A stretch of DNA of 20,000 nt from an uncultured virus (IMG/VR IMGVR_UViG_3300043499_000172) (IMGVR_UViG_3300043499_000172), one strand, 5' to 3'; shown: positions 5,515-20,000, numbered from the stretch's first letter. Program-made: numbers and translations. Notes: generated by a model from the letters alone, not told the origin.

Positions 5515-6693
5515 CTACAATCCTTTGAGCGCCGTTCTGAGGTCGGCGATGGCCGTGGCGTGCGTCGCCGTCGGCCGGTCGTCGTCGTCATGCGCTAGTG
5601 TAGTACCAGTCGACACCATTTGGAAGAGGCTTTCCGGCACCGCGAGCTTTTTCGGCTTGAGCGCGTCCTCGACCTGCTTGACGCTCTTCAGCTCGGGCTT
5701 GGTGTAGATGTCGGCGTGCTCGACGCCGGCCCGCATCAACGCCTCGGCGGTCTCGCCGTCGCTACCGATCCACTTGCGGGTGCCGCGCTTGGGCACCAGT
5801 TTCCAGCCGCCGATCAGACCGCCGTCGGTCAAATAGAGGTGGGCCTGACGACGGATCTCCTCCGCCCATGTCTCGGCGAACTCGGCAACCGCCAAGGCGC
5901 GCGTCAGGAAGGTCGAGTACTCGGCCTGCGCGGCGGGCGTCTGCGAGCCGCGCAAGGCGGCCTTGTTGGGGTCGAGGGCGCTGAGATCGAGCAGCGGCCC
6001 GGTCCACAGCTTGCAGGTCACCTTGCAGCGCGCGAAGCGGCAGTGCTCGCCGCGCTCGCGGTGCGGGTCGCGGCCGATCGCCTCGATGTAGGCGTTGGTC
6101 ATGCTCTCCTTGAACTGGTCCAGCTCCTCGTTGTCGGTGACCACCTCGGACACCGAATCCAGCCGCGGCTGGATGATCACCAGGACGATCTTCTTGCCGT
6201 TGAACAGCTTGGGCCGCTGCGCCCGCGCGCAGATGGCGTAGAAGGCCAGCTGCGGGTTGACCATGTCGGAGCCGTCGGGCAGCTCGTAGAGCGCGCTGAC
6301 GGGCACGCCGGAGCCGAATTTCCAGTCGACGACGAGGACGTGGGTCTTGGACGACAGCACCAGGTCGCAGGTGCCGAACGAGCCGGGCACGCCGGGGAAC
6401 GGGATGGTCTCCTCGATCGCGTTGATCCTGAAGCCGCCGCCCCACGCCTTCTTGAGGGCGTGCAGCGACGTCAACGCCTTCTGGAGCGTCGCCTCCTGCT
6501 CCTGCTCGAGCACGATGTTCATCTCCATGCCGGTCAGGCGGGCCGAGATGACCTCGTGCAGCATCGAGCCTTCGTCGGCGTAGATCGACGAGGTGTCGGT
6601 GTCGGGGCTGCGCATCAGCTCCTGGTGGGAGGCAGGACAGGCAAGCAGGCGCTGGGCGTTGCTGCCGCCGAGGATGGTCGAGTGACTGGTCAT
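5515..6693 (-). CDS. Cas4-like PD-(D/E)XK exonuclease (DUF2800-type)
   Basis: 392 aa from ATG 6693 (ATGA overlap with upstream stop). GGSNAQRLLACP, EGSMLH, GTCD...VVDWKFG, QLAFYA, IIQPR, and C-terminal Cys cluster GEHCRFARCKVTC. Confidence 0.9.
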   Translation of the reverse strand: MTSHSTILGGSNAQRLLACPASHQELMRSPDTDTSSIYADEGSMLHEVISARLTGMEMNIVLEQEQEATLQKALTSLHALKKAWGGGFRINAIEETIPFPGVPGSFGTCDLVLSSKTHVLVVDWKFGSGVPVSALYELPDGSDMVNPQLAFYAICARAQRPKLFNGKKIVLVIIQPRLDSVSEVVTDNEELDQFKESMTNAYIEAIGRDPHRERGEHCRFARCKVTCKLWTGPLLDLSALDPNKAALRGSQTPAAQAEYSTFLTRALAVAEFAETWAEEIRRQAHLYLTDGGLIGGWKLVPKRGTRKWIGSDGETAEALMRAGVEHADIYTKPELKSVKQVEDALKPKKLAVPESLFQMVSTGTTLAHDDDDRPTATHATAIADLRTALKGL

Positions 6694-11556: not shown

Positions 11557-14145
11557 ATGGCGCAACCATTACAGCCTAAAATCGTCCGCGACAATAAGCA
11601 TCCGCTCCTACAACGACGTCTCGCTGCGTCAGCCAATGGCTGGACGATCAATCCCAGCGTCTTCAAGATCGGCTGCAAGGGGTGGCCACGCCTGCCCTGC
11701 GACGAGGCAGCGATCCGCACGCACAAGCAGTGGCGGTCGCTCTATCACGACGGCACCGCCGTGCGGGTGGTCGGCAAGCTGGCGGTCTACGACTGCGACG
11801 TGTCGATCGACTGGGTCGCCGACCTGATCCTCGACGACCTGTTCTCGATCGACCCCGACGCCTTCAACGCCGCGGTGGTGCGCGATTCGGAGCGCGTCAG
11901 CCAAGCGCTGTTCTTCCGCACCGCGACGCCGTTCGGGCATATCTTGACCCACCACTACACGGCACACCCCGAGCTGTTGCCGCAGCTCGAGGCCGCCTAC
12001 GACATGAAGGTCGGCAACATCGAGGACGACGAGGACCAGGTCAACCTGATCCGCAGCCTGCACAAGCAGCTCGACCCGCAGAAGGTCGAGACCTACGGCC
12101 CGCTGTCGAAGGGCCGCCACTTCCAGTACGAAGGCACGCACTCACCGGGGCGCCAGTACCGATGCGGCGAGCGAGCGCCGTGGAACACCAAGGTCGACGA
12201 CCTGCCGCTGCTGCCGCTCACCCCCGAGGCGCTGGTCGAGCGCGCCGAGGCGATCCTCGCAGCCAACCTGACGCTGATACCAGAGCGCGTCGACAAGGGC
12301 GGCGAGGTCGTCTACGACCTGACGCCGGAGACGATGTTCTATCCCAAGGAAGGCATGCCCGGCACGGTCGCCGAGCTTGCCGACGGCCTGGAGTGGGATG
12401 CCTTGAACGGCATCTACGGCTGCCTGCCGTCGACGCGCGCATCGCAGAGCCAAGGCAACTGCAAGCTGTTCGTGACGCGGCGTGGGCGCATTGCCGTGCA
12501 GAACTGGGCGAACAACGGCCGCATCCACTACATGGTCTCAGATGCGCCGCCACCGCCCTTCGAGCTGCCGCAGAGCACCATCGACGCGCTGCGCGAGATA
12601 CAGCCGGCCAAGCCGGCCGAGCCGGACCCGGTGCCGCCGCGCGCCGAGCTGTCGCCCACCGCGACGCCCGAGGAGGCGCTCGACTTCCTGCTGATGAACT
12701 ACGCCTTCGACTACCACTCCGGCATGGTGGCGCGGCTGTACGGCACCGACATCGAGACGACGTTCATCAAGCTGGAGACCTTCCACAACCGCTACGCAGC
12801 CTACCGCTTCCCGCCTGGAGGCGGCGCGCACCAGCGGCCGACCGTGCCGACGCCGGTGTCGCGCGTCTGGCTGACGCGGCCGCAGCGCATCACGGTGGCA
12901 TCGACGCGGTTCCGGCCGGACAAGGCGTTCCCGCTCTACGAAGACGGCGGGCAGACCTTCAAGAACGTCTGGCAGGCGCCGCAACACCGCGGCGATGCCG
13001 ACATATCGTGGCTGATCGACAGCTTCTTCCCGGTGTTCATCCCCGACAAGGCCGAGCGCGACTGGTATCTCAACGTCACCGCGCACCGATGGGTCAACCC
13101 GGCGATACCGGGGCCGAGCGTGGTCATGGTGGCGCATGGCGCGGTGACCGCGACAGGATCCGACTACGGCACCGGGCGCAGCGGCTGGTTCGACTTCATG
13201 GCGCGGCTGTGGGGCCGGCAATACGTCCGCAACGAGGACTTCTCGGTGGTGGTCGGGCAGAACAGGCAGGGCGACTTCACATCGTGGAAGGCGTTCAAGC
13301 GGCTGATCACCATCGACGAGGCCAAGACGGCGCCTGAGCAGAACACCATGCGCGGCGGCAACGCCACCTACGAGCTGCTCAAGACCATGGTCGATCCGTC
13401 GCCGCGCTGGCGCACCTTCAAGGTCAAGTTCGAAAAGCCTTTCGAGGACTTCGACTACGCGCCGATCGACATCGCGTCGAACCACCAGGGCGCCGTGGCG
13501 GTGCCGCCGGGCGACAGGCGGTTCGGGGTGATCAACAACGGCCGCCCGCTGACGCCGGACGAGGCCAAGCGCTTCTACGCGATGATCGACCAGCCGGGCG
13601 TCATGGCGGCGTTCGCGCGATGGTGCGAGGCACGGGATCTCAGCAGCTTCAACCCCTACGCGCCACCACCGATGTTCAAGGCCAAGGCGCGCATGCAGGC
13701 GCTGTCGACGACCGAAATGGACAGCATCTTCACCGAGATGGCGAAGCGGTTCGGGCAGATGTTCACAAAGTCACAGGCGCGCGATTACGTGCTCAACCGG
13801 ATGGAGACGCGCCCCCACTCCTATGACACCACTTTCGACAAGCGGTTCGACGCTGCGTTCAGGGACTACTGCACGGCGCTGCGCGATCAGAGCGACGGCG
13901 AAAATCTCGACATCAAAGTGCAAAGACCGGGTCAGAGCGGCACCGTGAAACGCGAACGCGCGCATACTTTCGACGCGCGAAAAGTGGACCTTTTGTCCCT
14001 GCTCAAACCGCACGCGAGAGCCGCGGAAGTGGCAAAAAGTGAAAACGCGATCAAAATCGAGGCGCCGTTCAAGGTCGTGGAGGGCGGCGCTGACCAAAAC
14101 GCCCCTGATAGCAGGGACGATGTCCCTAAGCAGGGTCGCGACTAA
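11557..14145 (+). CDS. Primase-helicase: Prim-Pol/AEP-like N-terminus plus SF3 (D5/DUF5906-like) helicase
   Basis: N-terminal KGWP...AVYDCDV (DxD)...FQYEGTH; C-terminal GTGRS (Walker A variant), ITIDE (Walker B), IASNH (motif C), DRRF. AAGGT RBS. Confidence 0.85.
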   Translation: MAQPLQPKIVRDNKHPLLQRRLAASANGWTINPSVFKIGCKGWPRLPCDEAAIRTHKQWRSLYHDGTAVRVVGKLAVYDCDVSIDWVADLILDDLFSIDPDAFNAAVVRDSERVSQALFFRTATPFGHILTHHYTAHPELLPQLEAAYDMKVGNIEDDEDQVNLIRSLHKQLDPQKVETYGPLSKGRHFQYEGTHSPGRQYRCGERAPWNTKVDDLPLLPLTPEALVERAEAILAANLTLIPERVDKGGEVVYDLTPETMFYPKEGMPGTVAELADGLEWDALNGIYGCLPSTRASQSQGNCKLFVTRRGRIAVQNWANNGRIHYMVSDAPPPPFELPQSTIDALREIQPAKPAEPDPVPPRAELSPTATPEEALDFLLMNYAFDYHSGMVARLYGTDIETTFIKLETFHNRYAAYRFPPGGGAHQRPTVPTPVSRVWLTRPQRITVASTRFRPDKAFPLYEDGGQTFKNVWQAPQHRGDADISWLIDSFFPVFIPDKAERDWYLNVTAHRWVNPAIPGPSVVMVAHGAVTATGSDYGTGRSGWFDFMARLWGRQYVRNEDFSVVVGQNRQGDFTSWKAFKRLITIDEAKTAPEQNTMRGGNATYELLKTMVDPSPRWRTFKVKFEKPFEDFDYAPIDIASNHQGAVAVPPGDRRFGVINNGRPLTPDEAKRFYAMIDQPGVMAAFARWCEARDLSSFNPYAPPPMFKAKARMQALSTTEMDSIFTEMAKRFGQMFTKSQARDYVLNRMETRPHSYDTTFDKRFDAAFRDYCTALRDQSDGENLDIKVQRPGQSGTVKRERAHTFDARKVDLLSLLKPHARAAEVAKSENAIKIEAPFKVVEGGADQNAPDSRDDVPKQGRD

Positions 14146-18345: not shown

Positions 18346-18731
18346 CGACCAACACCGAGTTGCTGTTGCTGGCACTGCTCAGCGAGGCGCGCGACCTGAT
18401 CGCGGAAGCGATGGACGCCCACATCTACGACGCAGCCAGCGGCGAGGCGCCCGACGCCGATTGCGGATATGCCGACTTCCTGCAGCGCGTCGAGCGCGTC
18501 CTTGCGCGTGAGCAGCCGCAGGAGCGGCAGCCTTTCACGGTCGTGGCCACCTATGCGACGCCGAGCGGTCGTTGCGGCCGCTGGGAAGGCCGAGTCCTGG
18601 CGACAGCCGACACGGTCTATGCCGTGGCCGAGGCAGCGCTGCGCAGGCAGCGCAAGATCGGCGGCAAGATGGACATGCAGGCATTCGGCCGTGACGAGGC
18701 AACGCAGCGCATGGCCCCCGTCCGCGCCTGA
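18342..18731 (+). CDS. Hypothetical protein (129 aa)
   Basis: GGAGG RBS; ATGA overlap; followed by a terminator. Confidence 0.8.
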   Translation: MTTNTELLLLALLSEARDLIAEAMDAHIYDAASGEAPDADCGYADFLQRVERVLAREQPQERQPFTVVATYATPSGRCGRWEGRVLATADTVYAVAEAALRRQRKIGGKMDMQAFGRDEATQRMAPVRA

Positions 18732-18754
18732 CCCGGCAGCACCGACCTCGAGCT

Positions 18755-18788
18755 AACGCCCGGCCCCGTGCCGGGCGTTTTCGTTTGT
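18755..18788 (+). terminator. Rho-independent terminator
   Basis: AACGCCCGGC-CCCGT-GCCGGGCGTT perfect 10-bp stem followed by TTCGTTTGT. Confidence 0.85.
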
Positions 18789-18833
18789 GCTAGCGTTCTG
18801 GCCACACAGAGGCCCACAGGACGAGCGAGACGC

Positions 18834-19490
18834 ATGAACCGGCACATTCGACCACCCAAGGCGCCCGCGCGCGCTGGCGGCCCCTCTGAGCGGCCGCTAA
18901 CGCCCAAGCAAGAGCGGTTTGTGCAGGAGTATCTCACCGACCTACACGCCACCAACGCAGCCAAGCGGGCTGGATACGCCCCGAAATATGCCGACAGGCA
19001 AGGCCCAGCCTTGCTAGTGGACTCTAGAGTTCACCAGCGTATCGCCGAGGCGCAAGCGCAGCGCCGCGCCCGCGTCGAGGTGGATTCGGACTTCGTCCTT
19101 CGCCGCCTTCTCGAGGAAGTGAACGCCGATGCCGGCGACCTCTATGACGACAACGGCCGCCTTCTCCCGGTCAAGCAATGGCCCGAGGCGTGGCGCCGCG
19201 GGCTGGTCAGCACGATCCGCACCACCAAGCTATACGGCCGCGGCGAGGATCGCGGGACGGAGATCGGCGAACAGGTGGACGTCGTGCTCGTCGACCGCGC
19301 GCGGCGCCTGGAACTGCTAGGCAAGCACATCAAAGTAAATGCCTTCAGCGACAAAGTAACAATCGGGCTGGAATCGCCCCTGCAAGAACTGTTTAAGCAG
19401 ATCGCAGGCAACGTAATCCGGCCGCGCGACGGCCAGGATGCGCGCGTGATCGAGCATCAGCCGCTGGATCCAGAGGACAATGCAACCTAG
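18834..19490 (+). CDS. terS: Terminase small subunit (218 aa)
   Basis: LTPKQERFVQEYLTDLHATNAAKRAGY...LL...I...VLRRL...LELLGKH pattern; CAGGA upstream of ATG 18834. Confidence 0.93.
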   Translation: MNRHIRPPKAPARAGGPSERPLTPKQERFVQEYLTDLHATNAAKRAGYAPKYADRQGPALLVDSRVHQRIAEAQAQRRARVEVDSDFVLRRLLEEVNADAGDLYDDNGRLLPVKQWPEAWRRGLVSTIRTTKLYGRGEDRGTEIGEQVDVVLVDRARRLELLGKHIKVNAFSDKVTIGLESPLQELFKQIAGNVIRPRDGQDARVIEHQPLDPEDNAT

Positions 19491-19493
19491 CAT

Positions 19494-19684
19494 GGGCGCA
19501 GCGTAGGGGCGCAGCGCAACCGCGGGGTTGCAGGAGGCCGCAGGCCGGGAGGCGCCTCGCTTCGCTCGGCGTGCGGCGTGCTCGCTTCGCTCGCACTAGT
19601 TAGTGGTCGAAGAGAGTGCACTCGCTTCGCTCGTGCCTCGTCGCGCTGCGCGCTCCTCGCTGTGGTGTTCGCTGCGCTCACGAG
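19494..19684. repeat. Array of GNA-triloop mini-hairpins, including three exact CTCGCTTCGCTCG copies
   Basis: Copies at 19556-19568, 19581-19593 and 19621-19633, plus GCA-loop variants on both strands. Confidence 0.85.
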
Positions 19685-19887
19685 TCTTTGCTGGGTCCCG
19701 GCCCTGGCGGGCCGGGGGTGGCATCTGGATGAGCGTTGGAGTCCCACGATCGGATTCCTCTGATTAGTCCGTCGGCCTCACGCCCCATTTGAGCGGGTCC
19801 CTTTTGCCCCCCTACCAGGAGACACCAAAAACGAATTACCTCCCCTAACGCCGGTGGTCTCATCTCACCAACCACCAAACCGCGTAC

Positions 19888-19960
19888 CTGAAGGTGCGCC
19901 ACCCGCCGCACTTTCAGGGACGTCAAGGGACCGAAGGTCGCCCGCCCCCCGCACCTTCAG
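19888..19960. repeat. Three 11-bp repeats CGCACCTTCAG (one inverted, two direct)
   Basis: CTGAAGGTGCG 19888-19898; CGCACTTTCAG 19907-19917; CGCACCTTCAG 19950-19960. Confidence 0.8.
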
Positions 19961-20000
19961 TCCCGCCCCGTGAGAAAACCCCGCACCGCATGCTACCAGT

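What the first reader, a model, noticed from the sequence alone, without database searches (positions are those of the whole stretch)
19494..19684. Hairpin array with covarying stems and a constant GA-GC-GNA-GC-GA cap, switching strand just after terS
Seen: the 11-mer TCGCTTCGCTC occurs three times, each closed by a different complementary stem: CGCC[..]GGCG, GTGC[..]GCAC and GCAC[..]GTGC. On the minus strand the cap reads GAGCGAAGCGA. Two more minus-strand variants have a GCA loop (GA-GCGC-GCA-GCGC-GA near 19641-19655; GAGCGCAGCGA near 19669-19679). Left of about 19550 the same kind of loop is on the plus strand (GCGCAGC twice, GGCC-GCA-GGCC). Established: d(GCGAAGC) is an exceptionally stable DNA mini-hairpin, tandem GA/GA forms sheared pairs in DNA, and, from memory, GAGCGCAGCGA occurs in the ColE1/pBR322 primosome-assembly-site region. 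Inference: stem covariation indicates selection on strand-specific structure. The array may be a back-to-back single-strand initiation signal (PriA or phage primase) used for terminal-repeat duplication or packaging-coupled replication. I consider this the best candidate for an undescribed element here.
Basis: partly seen in the sequence, partly recalled or inferred. Interest (0 to 1): 0.78.

Follow-up and report, generated by a model that had tools for sequence, protein, structure and literature searches.

The report
Capped DNA hairpin cluster after terS
Just behind a soil phage's small terminase gene lies a conserved, non-coding row of tiny hairpins that all carry the same unusually stable cap; the same capped hairpin turns up in many unrelated phages and bacteria and beside the ColE1 replication origin, so it is probably a folded-DNA signal, but its job is unproven.

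Summary
Window 19552-19682 carries five hairpin units. On the plus strand each reads TC, a 2-4 bp stem, TNC, the matching stem, TC. On the minus strand this is GA-stem-GNA-stem-GA. Short outer stems of free sequence close each unit. No frame is conserved, and there is no Rfam or tRNA match. All eight sequence-distinct relatives (TerS 65-100% identical) keep 1-7 such units at the same place: after terS, before a GC hairpin and a promoter-like block, with terL 1.6-1.9 kb further on where the contig reaches it. Paired positions change only by double, compensating changes. The four clamp bases and the loop ends never change.

The cap is not private to this phage. It occurs in clusters in at least 95 other viral sequence groups (GC 26-67%). 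It is a dispersed, REP-like repeat of 100-450 copies in five bacterial genomes. It occurs once in ColE1, about 135 nt downstream of the inferred origin on the displaced strand.

I read it as a strand-specific folded-DNA signal. The structure is about 0.85 likely. A single-strand initiation role is about 0.3 likely and untested. Rivals are a packaging accessory, REP-like passenger DNA, an RNA 3' element and protein-binding repeats. The plus-strand half is lineage-specific. Contigs read through the array.

The parts
18768..19490 (+). terS (small terminase subunit), last gene of the plus-strand replication/early block
   Evidence: PF03592 Terminase_2, E 2.3e-29; phrog_51
19494..19546 (+). Lineage-specific repeats with GCA loops on the plus strand: GGGCGCAGCG twice, AACC-GCGG-GGTT, GGCC-GCA-GGCC. 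They have no GA clamp.
   Evidence: Kept in L001-type sequences, replaced by unrelated AT-rich repeats in L205, L207 and L208.
19552..19572 (-). Capped hairpin 1: outer stem (G)CGCC/GGCG(T), cap TCGCTTCGCTC on the plus strand, GAGCGAAGCGA on the minus strand
19578..19596 (-). Capped hairpin 2: outer stem GTGC/GCAC, same cap
19618..19636 (-). Capped hairpin 3: outer stem GCAC/GTGC, same cap
19640..19656 (-). Capped hairpin 4: the inner stem is lengthened to 4 bp (TC-GCGC-TGC-GCGC-TC). L002 has TC-GGGC-TAC-GCCC-TC at the matching place.
19666..19682 (-). Capped hairpin 5: cap TCGCTGCGCTC closed by GT/AC. This is the unit best kept across all relatives.
19697..19716 (.). GC hairpin CCCGGCCC-TGGC-GGGCCGGG followed by a G run. 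It has no T tract. An equivalent hairpin sits at this place in every relative.
   Evidence: (I17); no terminator-like site by the scan
19736..19764 (+). Conserved promoter-like block TTGGAG, 17 nt, TCTGAT (TATGAT in L002), ahead of the late genes of relatives
   Evidence: Alignment A1. The consensus scan did not call it. Calling it a promoter is my inference.

Best explanation
The stretch is a non-coding cluster of five small DNA hairpins sharing one structural cap. On the minus strand each unit reads: outer stem, G-A, a 2-4 bp inner stem, a G-N-A loop, the inner stem, G-A, outer stem. By established DNA chemistry this is a GNA mini-hairpin clamped by two sheared G.A pairs. On the plus strand the same places would be T.C/C.T mismatches. 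So the minus strand, which is the template strand of terS and the late genes, is the strand built to fold. This strand assignment is inferred from chemistry, not measured. I propose that these hairpins form when the minus strand is single-stranded or is extruded from supercoiled DNA. They would resist coating by single-strand-binding protein. They would then serve as a single-strand initiation signal, a place where a conserved replication factor starts synthesis towards the late genes. That factor could be the host primosome (PriA type), primase with SSB, or the phage's own primase. Shown: the structure, the covariation, conservation of position, and wide distribution of the cap. Inferred: which strand folds, that it acts as DNA rather than RNA, and the initiation role. 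Odds: about 0.85 that it is a selected folded-strand structure, and about 0.3 for the initiation role.
For: Structure. Pair counts stand far above shuffled and slid controls. 31 of 31 cap-shaped words have a complementary inner stem, and there are no single-mismatch variants. Compensated variants exist: TCACTTCGTTC in L002 and L207, TC-CC-TAC-GG-TC in L207, and 4-bp inner stems in the window and L002. The clamp bases and loop ends are invariant in all 27 units.

Conservation. All 8 sequence-distinct relatives (TerS 65-100% identical) carry 1-7 units between terS and the GC hairpin. The array is not coding.

A partner not tied to one phage. The same cap in pairs or clusters was found in at least 118 viral loci. 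These make 96 nucleotide groups, one of which is this clade, with GC 26-67%. The first outer pair is Watson-Crick in 80% and the second in 63%, against 26-28% in the slid control, and all four pair types occur.

Precedents. A review (PMC13037366, passages) places GNA mini-hairpins at the G4 complementary-strand origin, in RSF1010 ssiA (RepB' primase) and in N4 virion RNA polymerase promoters. The exact cap C-GAGCGTAGCGA-G occurs once in ColE1. It lies about 135 nt past the origin I infer from RNAI at 645-749 on the minus strand, on the displaced strand. ssiA is said to lie within 419 nt of the RNA/DNA switch (PMC3167613, passages). phiX174 has GCGAAGC at 2358-2364 in the F-G gap. That the primosome site lies in that gap is my recollection.

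The phage encodes its own family A polymerase, helicases and a primase-like protein.
Against: No experiment or read-level datum bears on priming here. All listed runs are stored as contigs, so they show no molecule ends and no strand. Known initiation signals have 1-3 hairpins, not 5-7. In five bacterial genomes the cap is a dispersed repeat of 100-450 copies in both orientations. That looks like REP-type DNA, for which no priming role is known. In other phages the arrays show no consistent orientation to flanking genes. In AT-rich groups, where ORF calls are most reliable, 9 lie with the T-rich strand as sense and 7 the other way. Whether the ColE1 cap lies inside the functional ssiA was not shown. 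GCGNAGC in phiX174 as a whole is at chance level (3 found, 2.86 expected). Nearest-neighbour folding gives the minus strand only a small advantage over the plus strand. The G.T versus A.C test for the folding strand was uninformative.
Confidence: 0.3

Rival explanations
1. REP/BIME-like passenger DNA. The units belong to a class of small palindromic repeats that spread or expand by duplication. They may be mobilised by a host tyrosine (Y1) transposase, or they may bind a general host factor such as gyrase. They sit in the one long gene-free gap that tolerates them and have no phage-specific job.
For: The cap is a dispersed repeat in bacteria: G005 has 211 copies, G006 103, G007 456, G003 307 and G004 231. 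Genome loci show it inside tandem clusters of one unit. All five of those genomes hold 1-2 Y1_Tnp genes. In one of six such loci (L415) three caps lie just beside the gene. Copy number in the phage clade varies from 1 to 7. There is no orientation rule relative to genes in other phages.
Against: In the phage records the motif is confined to this one site. All 6 matches in G001 are in the array. In G002, 3 of 4 are in the array and the fourth has no hairpin flanks. The position and the last unit are kept across relatives whose neighbouring non-coding DNA cannot be aligned. The units of one array have different stems, unlike copies of one REP consensus. GTAG or CTAC is not enriched beside caps. 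All units point the same way, unlike the inverted pairs of REPINs and BIMEs. No Y1 transposase was found among the window ORFs scanned.
Confidence: 0.25
2. Packaging accessory. The gap behind terS holds the packaging start (pac or cos region). TerS binds the lineage-specific repeats at 19494-19546, and the easily extruded hairpins help terminase cut or process the DNA.
For: The array abuts terS in all 8 relatives. The repeats directly after the terS stop codon differ between lineages, and so does the N-terminal helix-turn-helix part of TerS. In 7 of 66 other viral loci the nearest ORF is a terminase (TerL in L082, L083, L095, L113, L124, L139; TerS weakly in L115). In five of these the array lies upstream of terL (120 of 131 flanking ORFs were scanned). 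In G001 and G002 the GC skew of same-strand genes turns from mostly positive to mostly negative near the array.
Against: An identical cap in phages with unrelated terminases, in bacteria and in ColE1 does not fit a terminase-specific site. Most arrays in other phages are not beside terminase genes (59 of 66). In five records classed as having direct terminal repeats the arrays lie 1.9-35 kb from the ends. Contigs of runs X1 and X3 read through the array, although that does not exclude headful packaging. The skew shift may reflect gene content.
Confidence: 0.22
3. RNA element. The units fold in the terS transcript and, like REP sequences, protect its 3' end or help end the early operon before the late promoter. 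The plus strand is pyrimidine-rich and could load Rho.
For: The array starts 60 nt after the terS stop codon and precedes a strong GC hairpin. As RNA the plus-strand units fold at -5.2 to -8.5 kcal/mol. The plus strand of 19550-19690 is A-poor (11 A, 47 C, 46 G, 37 T).
Against: The invariant bases would be U.C and C.U mismatches and a UNC loop in this RNA, and nothing known selects for these. On the other strand they are the stable G.A and GNA motifs. No terminator-like site was found and no Rfam family matches. In other phages the cap shows no preferred orientation to transcription.
Confidence: 0.1
4. Double-stranded binding sites. The 13-mer is a repeated recognition site for TerS or for an activator of the late promoter about 70-200 bp downstream.
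For: There are 4-7 direct repeats of one word at 15-47 bp spacing, all in one orientation, upstream of a conserved promoter-like block.
Against: Duplex recognition does not explain compensating double changes in the inner stem or complementary flanks of free sequence. It also does not explain the same word in unrelated phages and bacteria.
Confidence: 0.08

Closest known systems
Natural d(GCGNAGC) mini-hairpins at start sites on single-stranded DNA: phage G4 complementary-strand origin, RSF1010 ssiA, phage N4 virion RNA polymerase promoters (review PMC13037366, passages seen)
   Same: A GNA loop closed by C-G on one strand only. The known natural uses are starts of RNA synthesis on folded single-stranded DNA. 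The hairpin is small and its stem sequence is free.
   Different: Here each loop also carries a conserved pair of G.A clamps. The units come in a row of 5-7. The phage records seen show no N4-type RNA polymerase, but that search was uninformative. No activity has been tested.
ColE1/pMB1 ssiA, the PriA primosome assembly signal downstream of the plasmid origin (PMC3167613, passages seen)
   Same: ColE1 holds the same 13-mer form, C-GA-GC-GTA-GC-GA-G, at 1331-1343. It lies about 135 nt past the inferred origin, on the strand displaced by Pol I.
   Different: ColE1 has a single copy with only one outer base pair. Whether it lies inside the functional signal was not established here. The phage array is multi-copy and no origin is known nearby.
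REP / BIME / REPIN repeats of bacteria
   Same: Short imperfect palindromes in gene-free DNA, often in clusters just after a gene. The same cap forms high-copy dispersed families in bacteria, once beside a Y1 transposase gene.
   Different: The phage has a single site. All units point one way. The stems differ between units. There is no GTAG tag enrichment and no transposase in the window.
Packaging sites built of repeats near terS
   Same: The location next to terS, and several short repeats flanking a central zone.
   Different: Those sites are duplex protein-binding repeats without selected hairpins. Here the pairing itself is conserved and the cap is shared with unrelated phages.
Phage T7 concatemer-junction hairpin model
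   Same: A DNA hairpin near the packaging genes, proposed to act in DNA maturation.
   Different: No terminal repeat or end is indicated here. The terminase and phage type are different.

Membership tests
d(GCGNAGC)-type mini-hairpin (structural class) | A G-N-A loop closed by a C-G pair on a short GC stem | tested here: met
   All 27 distinct units have C-(G N A)-G on the minus strand. N is A, C or U/T.
d(GCGNAGC)-type mini-hairpin (structural class) | Exceptional thermal stability of the folded strand | not testable with these tools
   Nearest-neighbour models lack the special terms. They give -3.5 to -4.7 kcal/mol as DNA for the three units capped GAGCGAAGCGA (h1-h3).
Single-strand initiation signals (PriA-type pas, G4-type, RepB' ssiA) | A strand-specific hairpin structure kept by selection | tested here: met
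   Covariation. One orientation throughout the clade.
Single-strand initiation signals (PriA-type pas, G4-type, RepB' ssiA) | Supports priming or primosome assembly on SSB-coated single-stranded DNA | not testable with these tools
   Needs an M13 complementation test or an in vitro priming assay.
Single-strand initiation signals (PriA-type pas, G4-type, RepB' ssiA) | Lies at or beside a replication origin, on the displaced or lagging-strand template | tested here: inconclusive
   The origin of this phage is unknown. GC skew changes sign near the array in G001 and G002, but only weakly.
REP / REPIN / BIME | Many dispersed copies in the genome that carries them | tested here: not met
   One site only in the window and in G001 and G002. 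The host genome is unknown.
REP / REPIN / BIME | A conserved GTAG-type tag beside the palindrome | tested here: not met
   GTAG or CTAC is not enriched within 20 nt of caps: 12-19 of 275 viral and 9-14 of 349 genomic instances. GTAG does follow some units in L002 and L206.
REP / REPIN / BIME | A cognate Y1 (RAYT) transposase, typically flanked by the repeats | tested here: inconclusive
   None among the window ORFs scanned. In bacteria with many caps, 1 of 6 Y1_Tnp loci has caps beside it.
REP / REPIN / BIME | Units in inverted pairs or alternating orientation | tested here: not met
   All capped units of the clade point the same way.
N4-type hairpin promoters | A template-strand hairpin with a 5-7 bp stem and a 3-nt purine-centred loop upstream of a start site, read by a virion RNA polymerase | tested here: inconclusive
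   The hairpins are on the template strand of the downstream genes. [quoted passage not shown]
pac/cos site | Virion DNA ends or a packaging series start at the site | not testable with these tools
   Only contigs, not raw reads, were on hand. The tool listed no place where molecules begin or end.
Intrinsic terminator | A GC-rich hairpin directly followed by a T tract | tested here: not met
   0 terminator-like sites on either strand of 19200-20000.
Rfam RNA families / tRNA | A match to a curated model | tested here: not met
   0 matches at E up to 1 in 18500-20000. 0 tRNA or tmRNA genes.

The most novel reading that the evidence does not exclude
The G.A-clamped GNA cap is a portable loading signal for a conserved bacterial replication factor, independent of the host. 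That factor could be PriA-type primosome assembly, or primase acting beside SSB. ColE1 uses one copy. Phages of unrelated hosts place rows of copies at chosen gene boundaries to start synthesis on a displaced strand. The REP-like families that carry the cap in bacteria would then be dispersed replication-restart sites.
Probability: 0.12. Interest if true: 0.85.

Novelty: new variant of a known kind. Interest (0 to 1): 0.6.

Why it matters
Small, very stable DNA hairpins are known from a handful of classic start sites (G4, RSF1010, N4, ColE1). This finding shows one exact structural form: a GNA loop plus two G.A clamps on stems of free sequence. That form is under selection at a fixed place in a phage lineage. 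It recurs in about a hundred unrelated viral sequence groups and as a high-copy repeat in bacteria. If one conserved factor reads it, this would give a simple, testable sequence rule for where DNA synthesis or another single-strand transaction starts in many phages. It might also give a function for a class of bacterial palindromic repeats. If the units are only passenger DNA, it still shows that REP-like repeats settle in phage genomes, which is not the usual view.

Tried and rejected
- **Own genome:** none is held, and the metagenome record behind L201 is not held.
- **DNA similarity to isolated phages:** no match for 18700-20000. The nearest isolates by TerS (Microcystis phage Mwe-JY25, Ochrobactrum phage POI1126) have genes directly after terS and no array.
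- **tRNA and Rfam:** nothing found.
- **Conserved ORF across the array:** rejected.
- **Promoter and terminator scan:** 0 and 0.
- **RNA evidence:** no RNA holder is listed. All four runs laid were contigs, so they say nothing on ends, strand or expression. In run X5 the assembly breaks inside the array (19553-19610) with a poly-G loose end, which I take as an assembly artefact.
- **Host search:** TerS against 401 genomes of one class gave one distant match at 44% identity, so the host remains unknown.
- **RNA polymerase family PF00940 in G001 and G002:** nothing found, but the control rang nowhere, so this is uninformative.
- **GTAG tag:** not enriched.
- **Strand test by G.T versus A.C:** the counts (13 versus 1) match what base composition predicts, so this is uninformative.
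- **Orientation to flanking ORFs in other phages:** mixed. ORF calls in GC-rich loci are crude.
- **Nearness to contig ends:** no consistent pattern in records with terminal repeats.
- **The 'reversed pattern' control of the genome search:** not independent for this near-symmetric word. A cap preceded by C also matches the reversed pattern, so the control understates the enrichment.
- **The 862-aa ORF (11557-14145):** no Pfam or PDB match and only a weak PHROG primase hit.
- **Literature:** full-text searches for the cap on either strand and for four bacterial variants found only primer lists and unrelated papers. I therefore found no description of this capped hairpin in that open library. 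Subscription journals were not searched.
- **Earlier scan notes by sequence:** none.
- **Global folds of 241 nt:** both strands fold somewhat better than shuffles (z -2.6 and -3.1), which does not separate them.

Full report
**Setting.** The window comes from an uncultured soil phage, and no whole genome is held for it.
- The minus strand of the left half encodes an SNF2-type helicase, a family A DNA polymerase, a DUF2800 nuclease and a DUF932 protein.
- The plus strand from about 11.1 kb encodes a small nuclease, an 862-aa primase-like protein and several unknowns.
- The last gene on the plus strand is terS, at 18768-19490 (PF03592, E 2.3e-29).
- From 19491 to the window's end no credible gene follows.
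- In the two closest viral contigs (L001 and L002, TerS about 75% identical) the same gap is 400-700 nt long. A few small genes follow, and terL lies 1.6-1.9 kb after terS. These two records are 53% and 58% complete by CheckV.

**The observation.**
- Read on the plus strand, five units share the plan: outer stem, TC, inner stem, TNC, inner stem, TC, outer stem.
- They lie at 19552-19572, 19578-19596, 19618-19636, 19640-19656 and 19666-19682.
- The first three have the identical 13-mer with outer stems CGCC/GGCG, GTGC/GCAC and GCAC/GTGC.
- The fourth has a 4-bp inner stem. The fifth is closed by T-A instead of C-G.
- Left of 19550 there are GCA loops on the plus strand, but they lack the TC/TC (GA/GA) clamp.

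**Is it selected?** A metagenome scan added the same phage (L201), more L001-type copies and four more distant relatives (L205-L208, TerS 65-74% identical).
- Every one of the eight sequence-distinct members has 1-7 capped units after terS.
- In every member a GC-rich hairpin, a G run and a conserved TTGGAG-N17-T(A/C)TGAT block follow.
- I aligned 27 distinct units by the cap. In them 87.7% of pair cells form standard pairs, against 70.7% after shuffling (0 of 500 shuffles reach this).
- Five of six pairs change on both sides. Sliding the partner drops pairing to 11-56%.
- Caveat: the units are partly paralogues, and I picked them with a pattern that included two variant caps I had already seen.
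- I therefore also scanned the arrays for every word of the form TC-xy-TNC-zw-TC. All 31 have both inner pairs complementary, and no word lies one mismatch from the cap.
- The variants are all double changes: TCACTTCGTTC in L002 and L207, and TCCCTACGGTC in L207.
- The clamp bases and the loop ends are invariant in all 27 units.
- No frame is conserved. L002, L206 and L208 have stops in all six frames across the array. There is no Rfam or tRNA match.

**Which strand, and DNA or RNA?**
- On the minus strand the invariant bases make two adjacent G.A pairs and a G-N-A loop closed by C-G. By established nucleic-acid chemistry both are unusually stable, above all in DNA. A review describes the GCGNAGC mini-hairpin (PMC13037366).
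- On the plus strand the same bases are pyrimidine mismatches with no known stabilising role.
- This argues that the minus strand is the functional one. It is antisense to terS and to the late genes, and no leftward promoter was detected. So I favour DNA over RNA.
- This is inference. Nearest-neighbour folding barely separates the strands. The G.T versus A.C test was explained by base composition. No RNA data were available.

**The cap is widespread.** I scanned for two caps 8-38 nt apart.
Together with L001, L002 and the window these loci fall into 96 nucleotide groups, one of which is this clade, with GC 26-67%.
- Some hits are tandem duplications of one unit, but many are independent hairpins with long, unrelated stems.
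- Across 274-280 distinct viral instances the first outer pair is Watson-Crick in 80% and the second in 63%, against 26-28% for a slid partner. All four pair types occur.
- Most phage records carry one cluster of 2-7 caps, nearly always in one orientation.
- In five bacterial genomes the cap is a dispersed repeat of 103-456 copies on both strands. The tool's reversed-pattern control partly counts the same elements and so understates the enrichment.
- All five genomes have one or two Y1 transposase genes. One of the six loci has three caps beside the gene.
- So as a class this is REP-like DNA. The phage array itself fails several REP criteria: it is a single site, the units point one way, the stems differ between units, and there is no GTAG enrichment.

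**Context in other phages.** I scanned 120 of 131 flanking ORFs from 66 loci. The 11 left out came from short loci.
- A terminase is the nearest gene in 7 loci, and in five of these the array lies upstream of terL.
- Replication or recombination genes are nearest in about 10 loci.
- Most neighbours are of unknown function.
- Orientation relative to flanking genes is mixed.

**Links to known start signals.**
- The review lists GNA mini-hairpins at the G4 complementary-strand origin, in RSF1010 ssiA and in N4 early promoters.
- RNAI lies at 645-749 on the minus strand. RNA II therefore runs rightward. With its textbook length of about 555 nt (recalled), the origin is near 1200. That puts the cap about 135 nt downstream, on the strand displaced by Pol I.
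- A paper states that Pol I extension exposes the PriA signal ssiA, and that ssiA lies within 419 nt of the RNA/DNA switch (PMC3167613, passages). Whether the cap is part of ssiA was not shown.
- phiX174 has GCGAAGC in the F-G gap, but the motif count in that genome is at chance level.

**Ends.** Logan contigs of two runs (X1, X3) cross the array and continue 1.6-8 kb past position 20000. Nothing forces a physical end here, and headful packaging cannot be judged from contigs. In G001 and G002 the GC skew of genes on the same strand shifts from mostly positive to mostly negative around the array. This is weak and confounded by gene content.

**Verdict.** The structure is real, selected and strand-asymmetric (about 0.85). 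Its job is open.
- The same cap serves phages of unrelated hosts, bacteria and ColE1. I therefore favour a partner that is conserved across bacteria, or pure DNA mechanics, over a phage-specific protein.
- Every documented natural use of this loop type is a start of synthesis on single-stranded DNA. I therefore put a single-strand initiation role first at 0.3.
- The other readings are REP-like passenger DNA (0.25), a packaging accessory (0.22), an RNA 3' element (0.10) and duplex binding sites (0.08).
The 'back-to-back' design and the terminal-repeat idea are not.
- Earlier notes of this scan report similar mini-hairpin arrays on other DNA: at a phage end, at a presumed origin and in REP-like families. 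I did not check those claims.

Noticed in passing
window 19736-19764; L001 about 5985-6015; L002 about 5900-5930: A conserved block TTGGAG, 16-17 nt, T(A/C)TG(A/T)T lies downstream of the array in all relatives. Repeated GGGTCCC words follow it. It looks like the late-operon promoter with regulator sites. The consensus scan did not call it in the window.
   Followed up: partly
window 19883-19965: Two adjacent hairpins of about 40 nt (arms 19883-19898/19907-19922 and 19927-19938/19953-19964), which also form a 28-nt direct repeat. L001 and L002 have two different hairpins at the matching place. This may be a leader structure of the late transcript.
   Followed up: no
window 19494-19546; L205 1955-2070; L207 600-680; L208 480-570: The DNA between the terS stop codon and the first capped unit holds repeats that differ by lineage: GGGCGCAGCG here, AGTATA-type in L205, ATGCAC-type in L208. 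The TerS helix-turn-helix region also differs between lineages. These repeats are candidates for TerS or regulator sites.
   Followed up: partly
window 18768-19490 versus L001 7348-9198 and L002 7556-9115: In this clade terS is split from terL by 1.6-1.9 kb of non-coding DNA and small genes. terS closes the replication-gene block instead of opening the late operon.
   Followed up: partly
window 19970: The window has G here. All four laid runs have T, and the near-identical contig L201 has C and ends 7 nt further on. L203 also ends in this gap. This may be contig-end error or a variable site.
   Followed up: no
G001 and G002 (L420-L423), around 17-19 kb: The GC skew of genes on one strand changes from mostly positive to mostly negative near the array, while the AT skew keeps its sign.
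   Followed up: partly
L284, L296, L298, L303, L337; L308, L313; L285, L291, L316 (genome contigs): Bacteria of several phyla carry tandem or dispersed repeats in which the cap sits on stems of the type GATTGC../..GCAATGAC, GATTCC../..GGAATGAC or GATTCT../..AGAATGAC. Full-text searches for four such words found no description.
   Followed up: partly
L415 2228-2307 (G003:C5 about 1161278-1161357): Three capped hairpins, each preceded by CCCTAC on the purine strand, lie just beside a Y1 transposase gene of an acidobacterial genome. This is the layout expected of a RAYT with its REPs.
   Followed up: partly
L419 (ColE1) 1331-1343; L424 (phiX174) 2358-2364: ColE1 has the full clamped cap about 135 nt past the inferred origin, on the displaced strand. 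phiX174 has GCGAAGC in the F-G intergenic gap.
   Followed up: partly
L169, beside its capped hairpins: A GTTTCACGTGAAAC palindrome directly follows a capped unit. It resembles a parS-type partition site (name recalled).
   Followed up: no
window 11557-14145: An 862-aa ORF has no Pfam or PDB match and only a weak PHROG primase hit (E 7.6e-07). It may be a new primase-helicase.
   Followed up: partly
L085 group; uncultured phage cr6_1 (NC_055894.1) about 91.9-92.7 kb: In a group of crAss-like gut phages, one long AT-rich hairpin carries two caps in its loop. It lies between a sigma factor/ubiquitin-like gene and a virion protein gene.
   Followed up: partly
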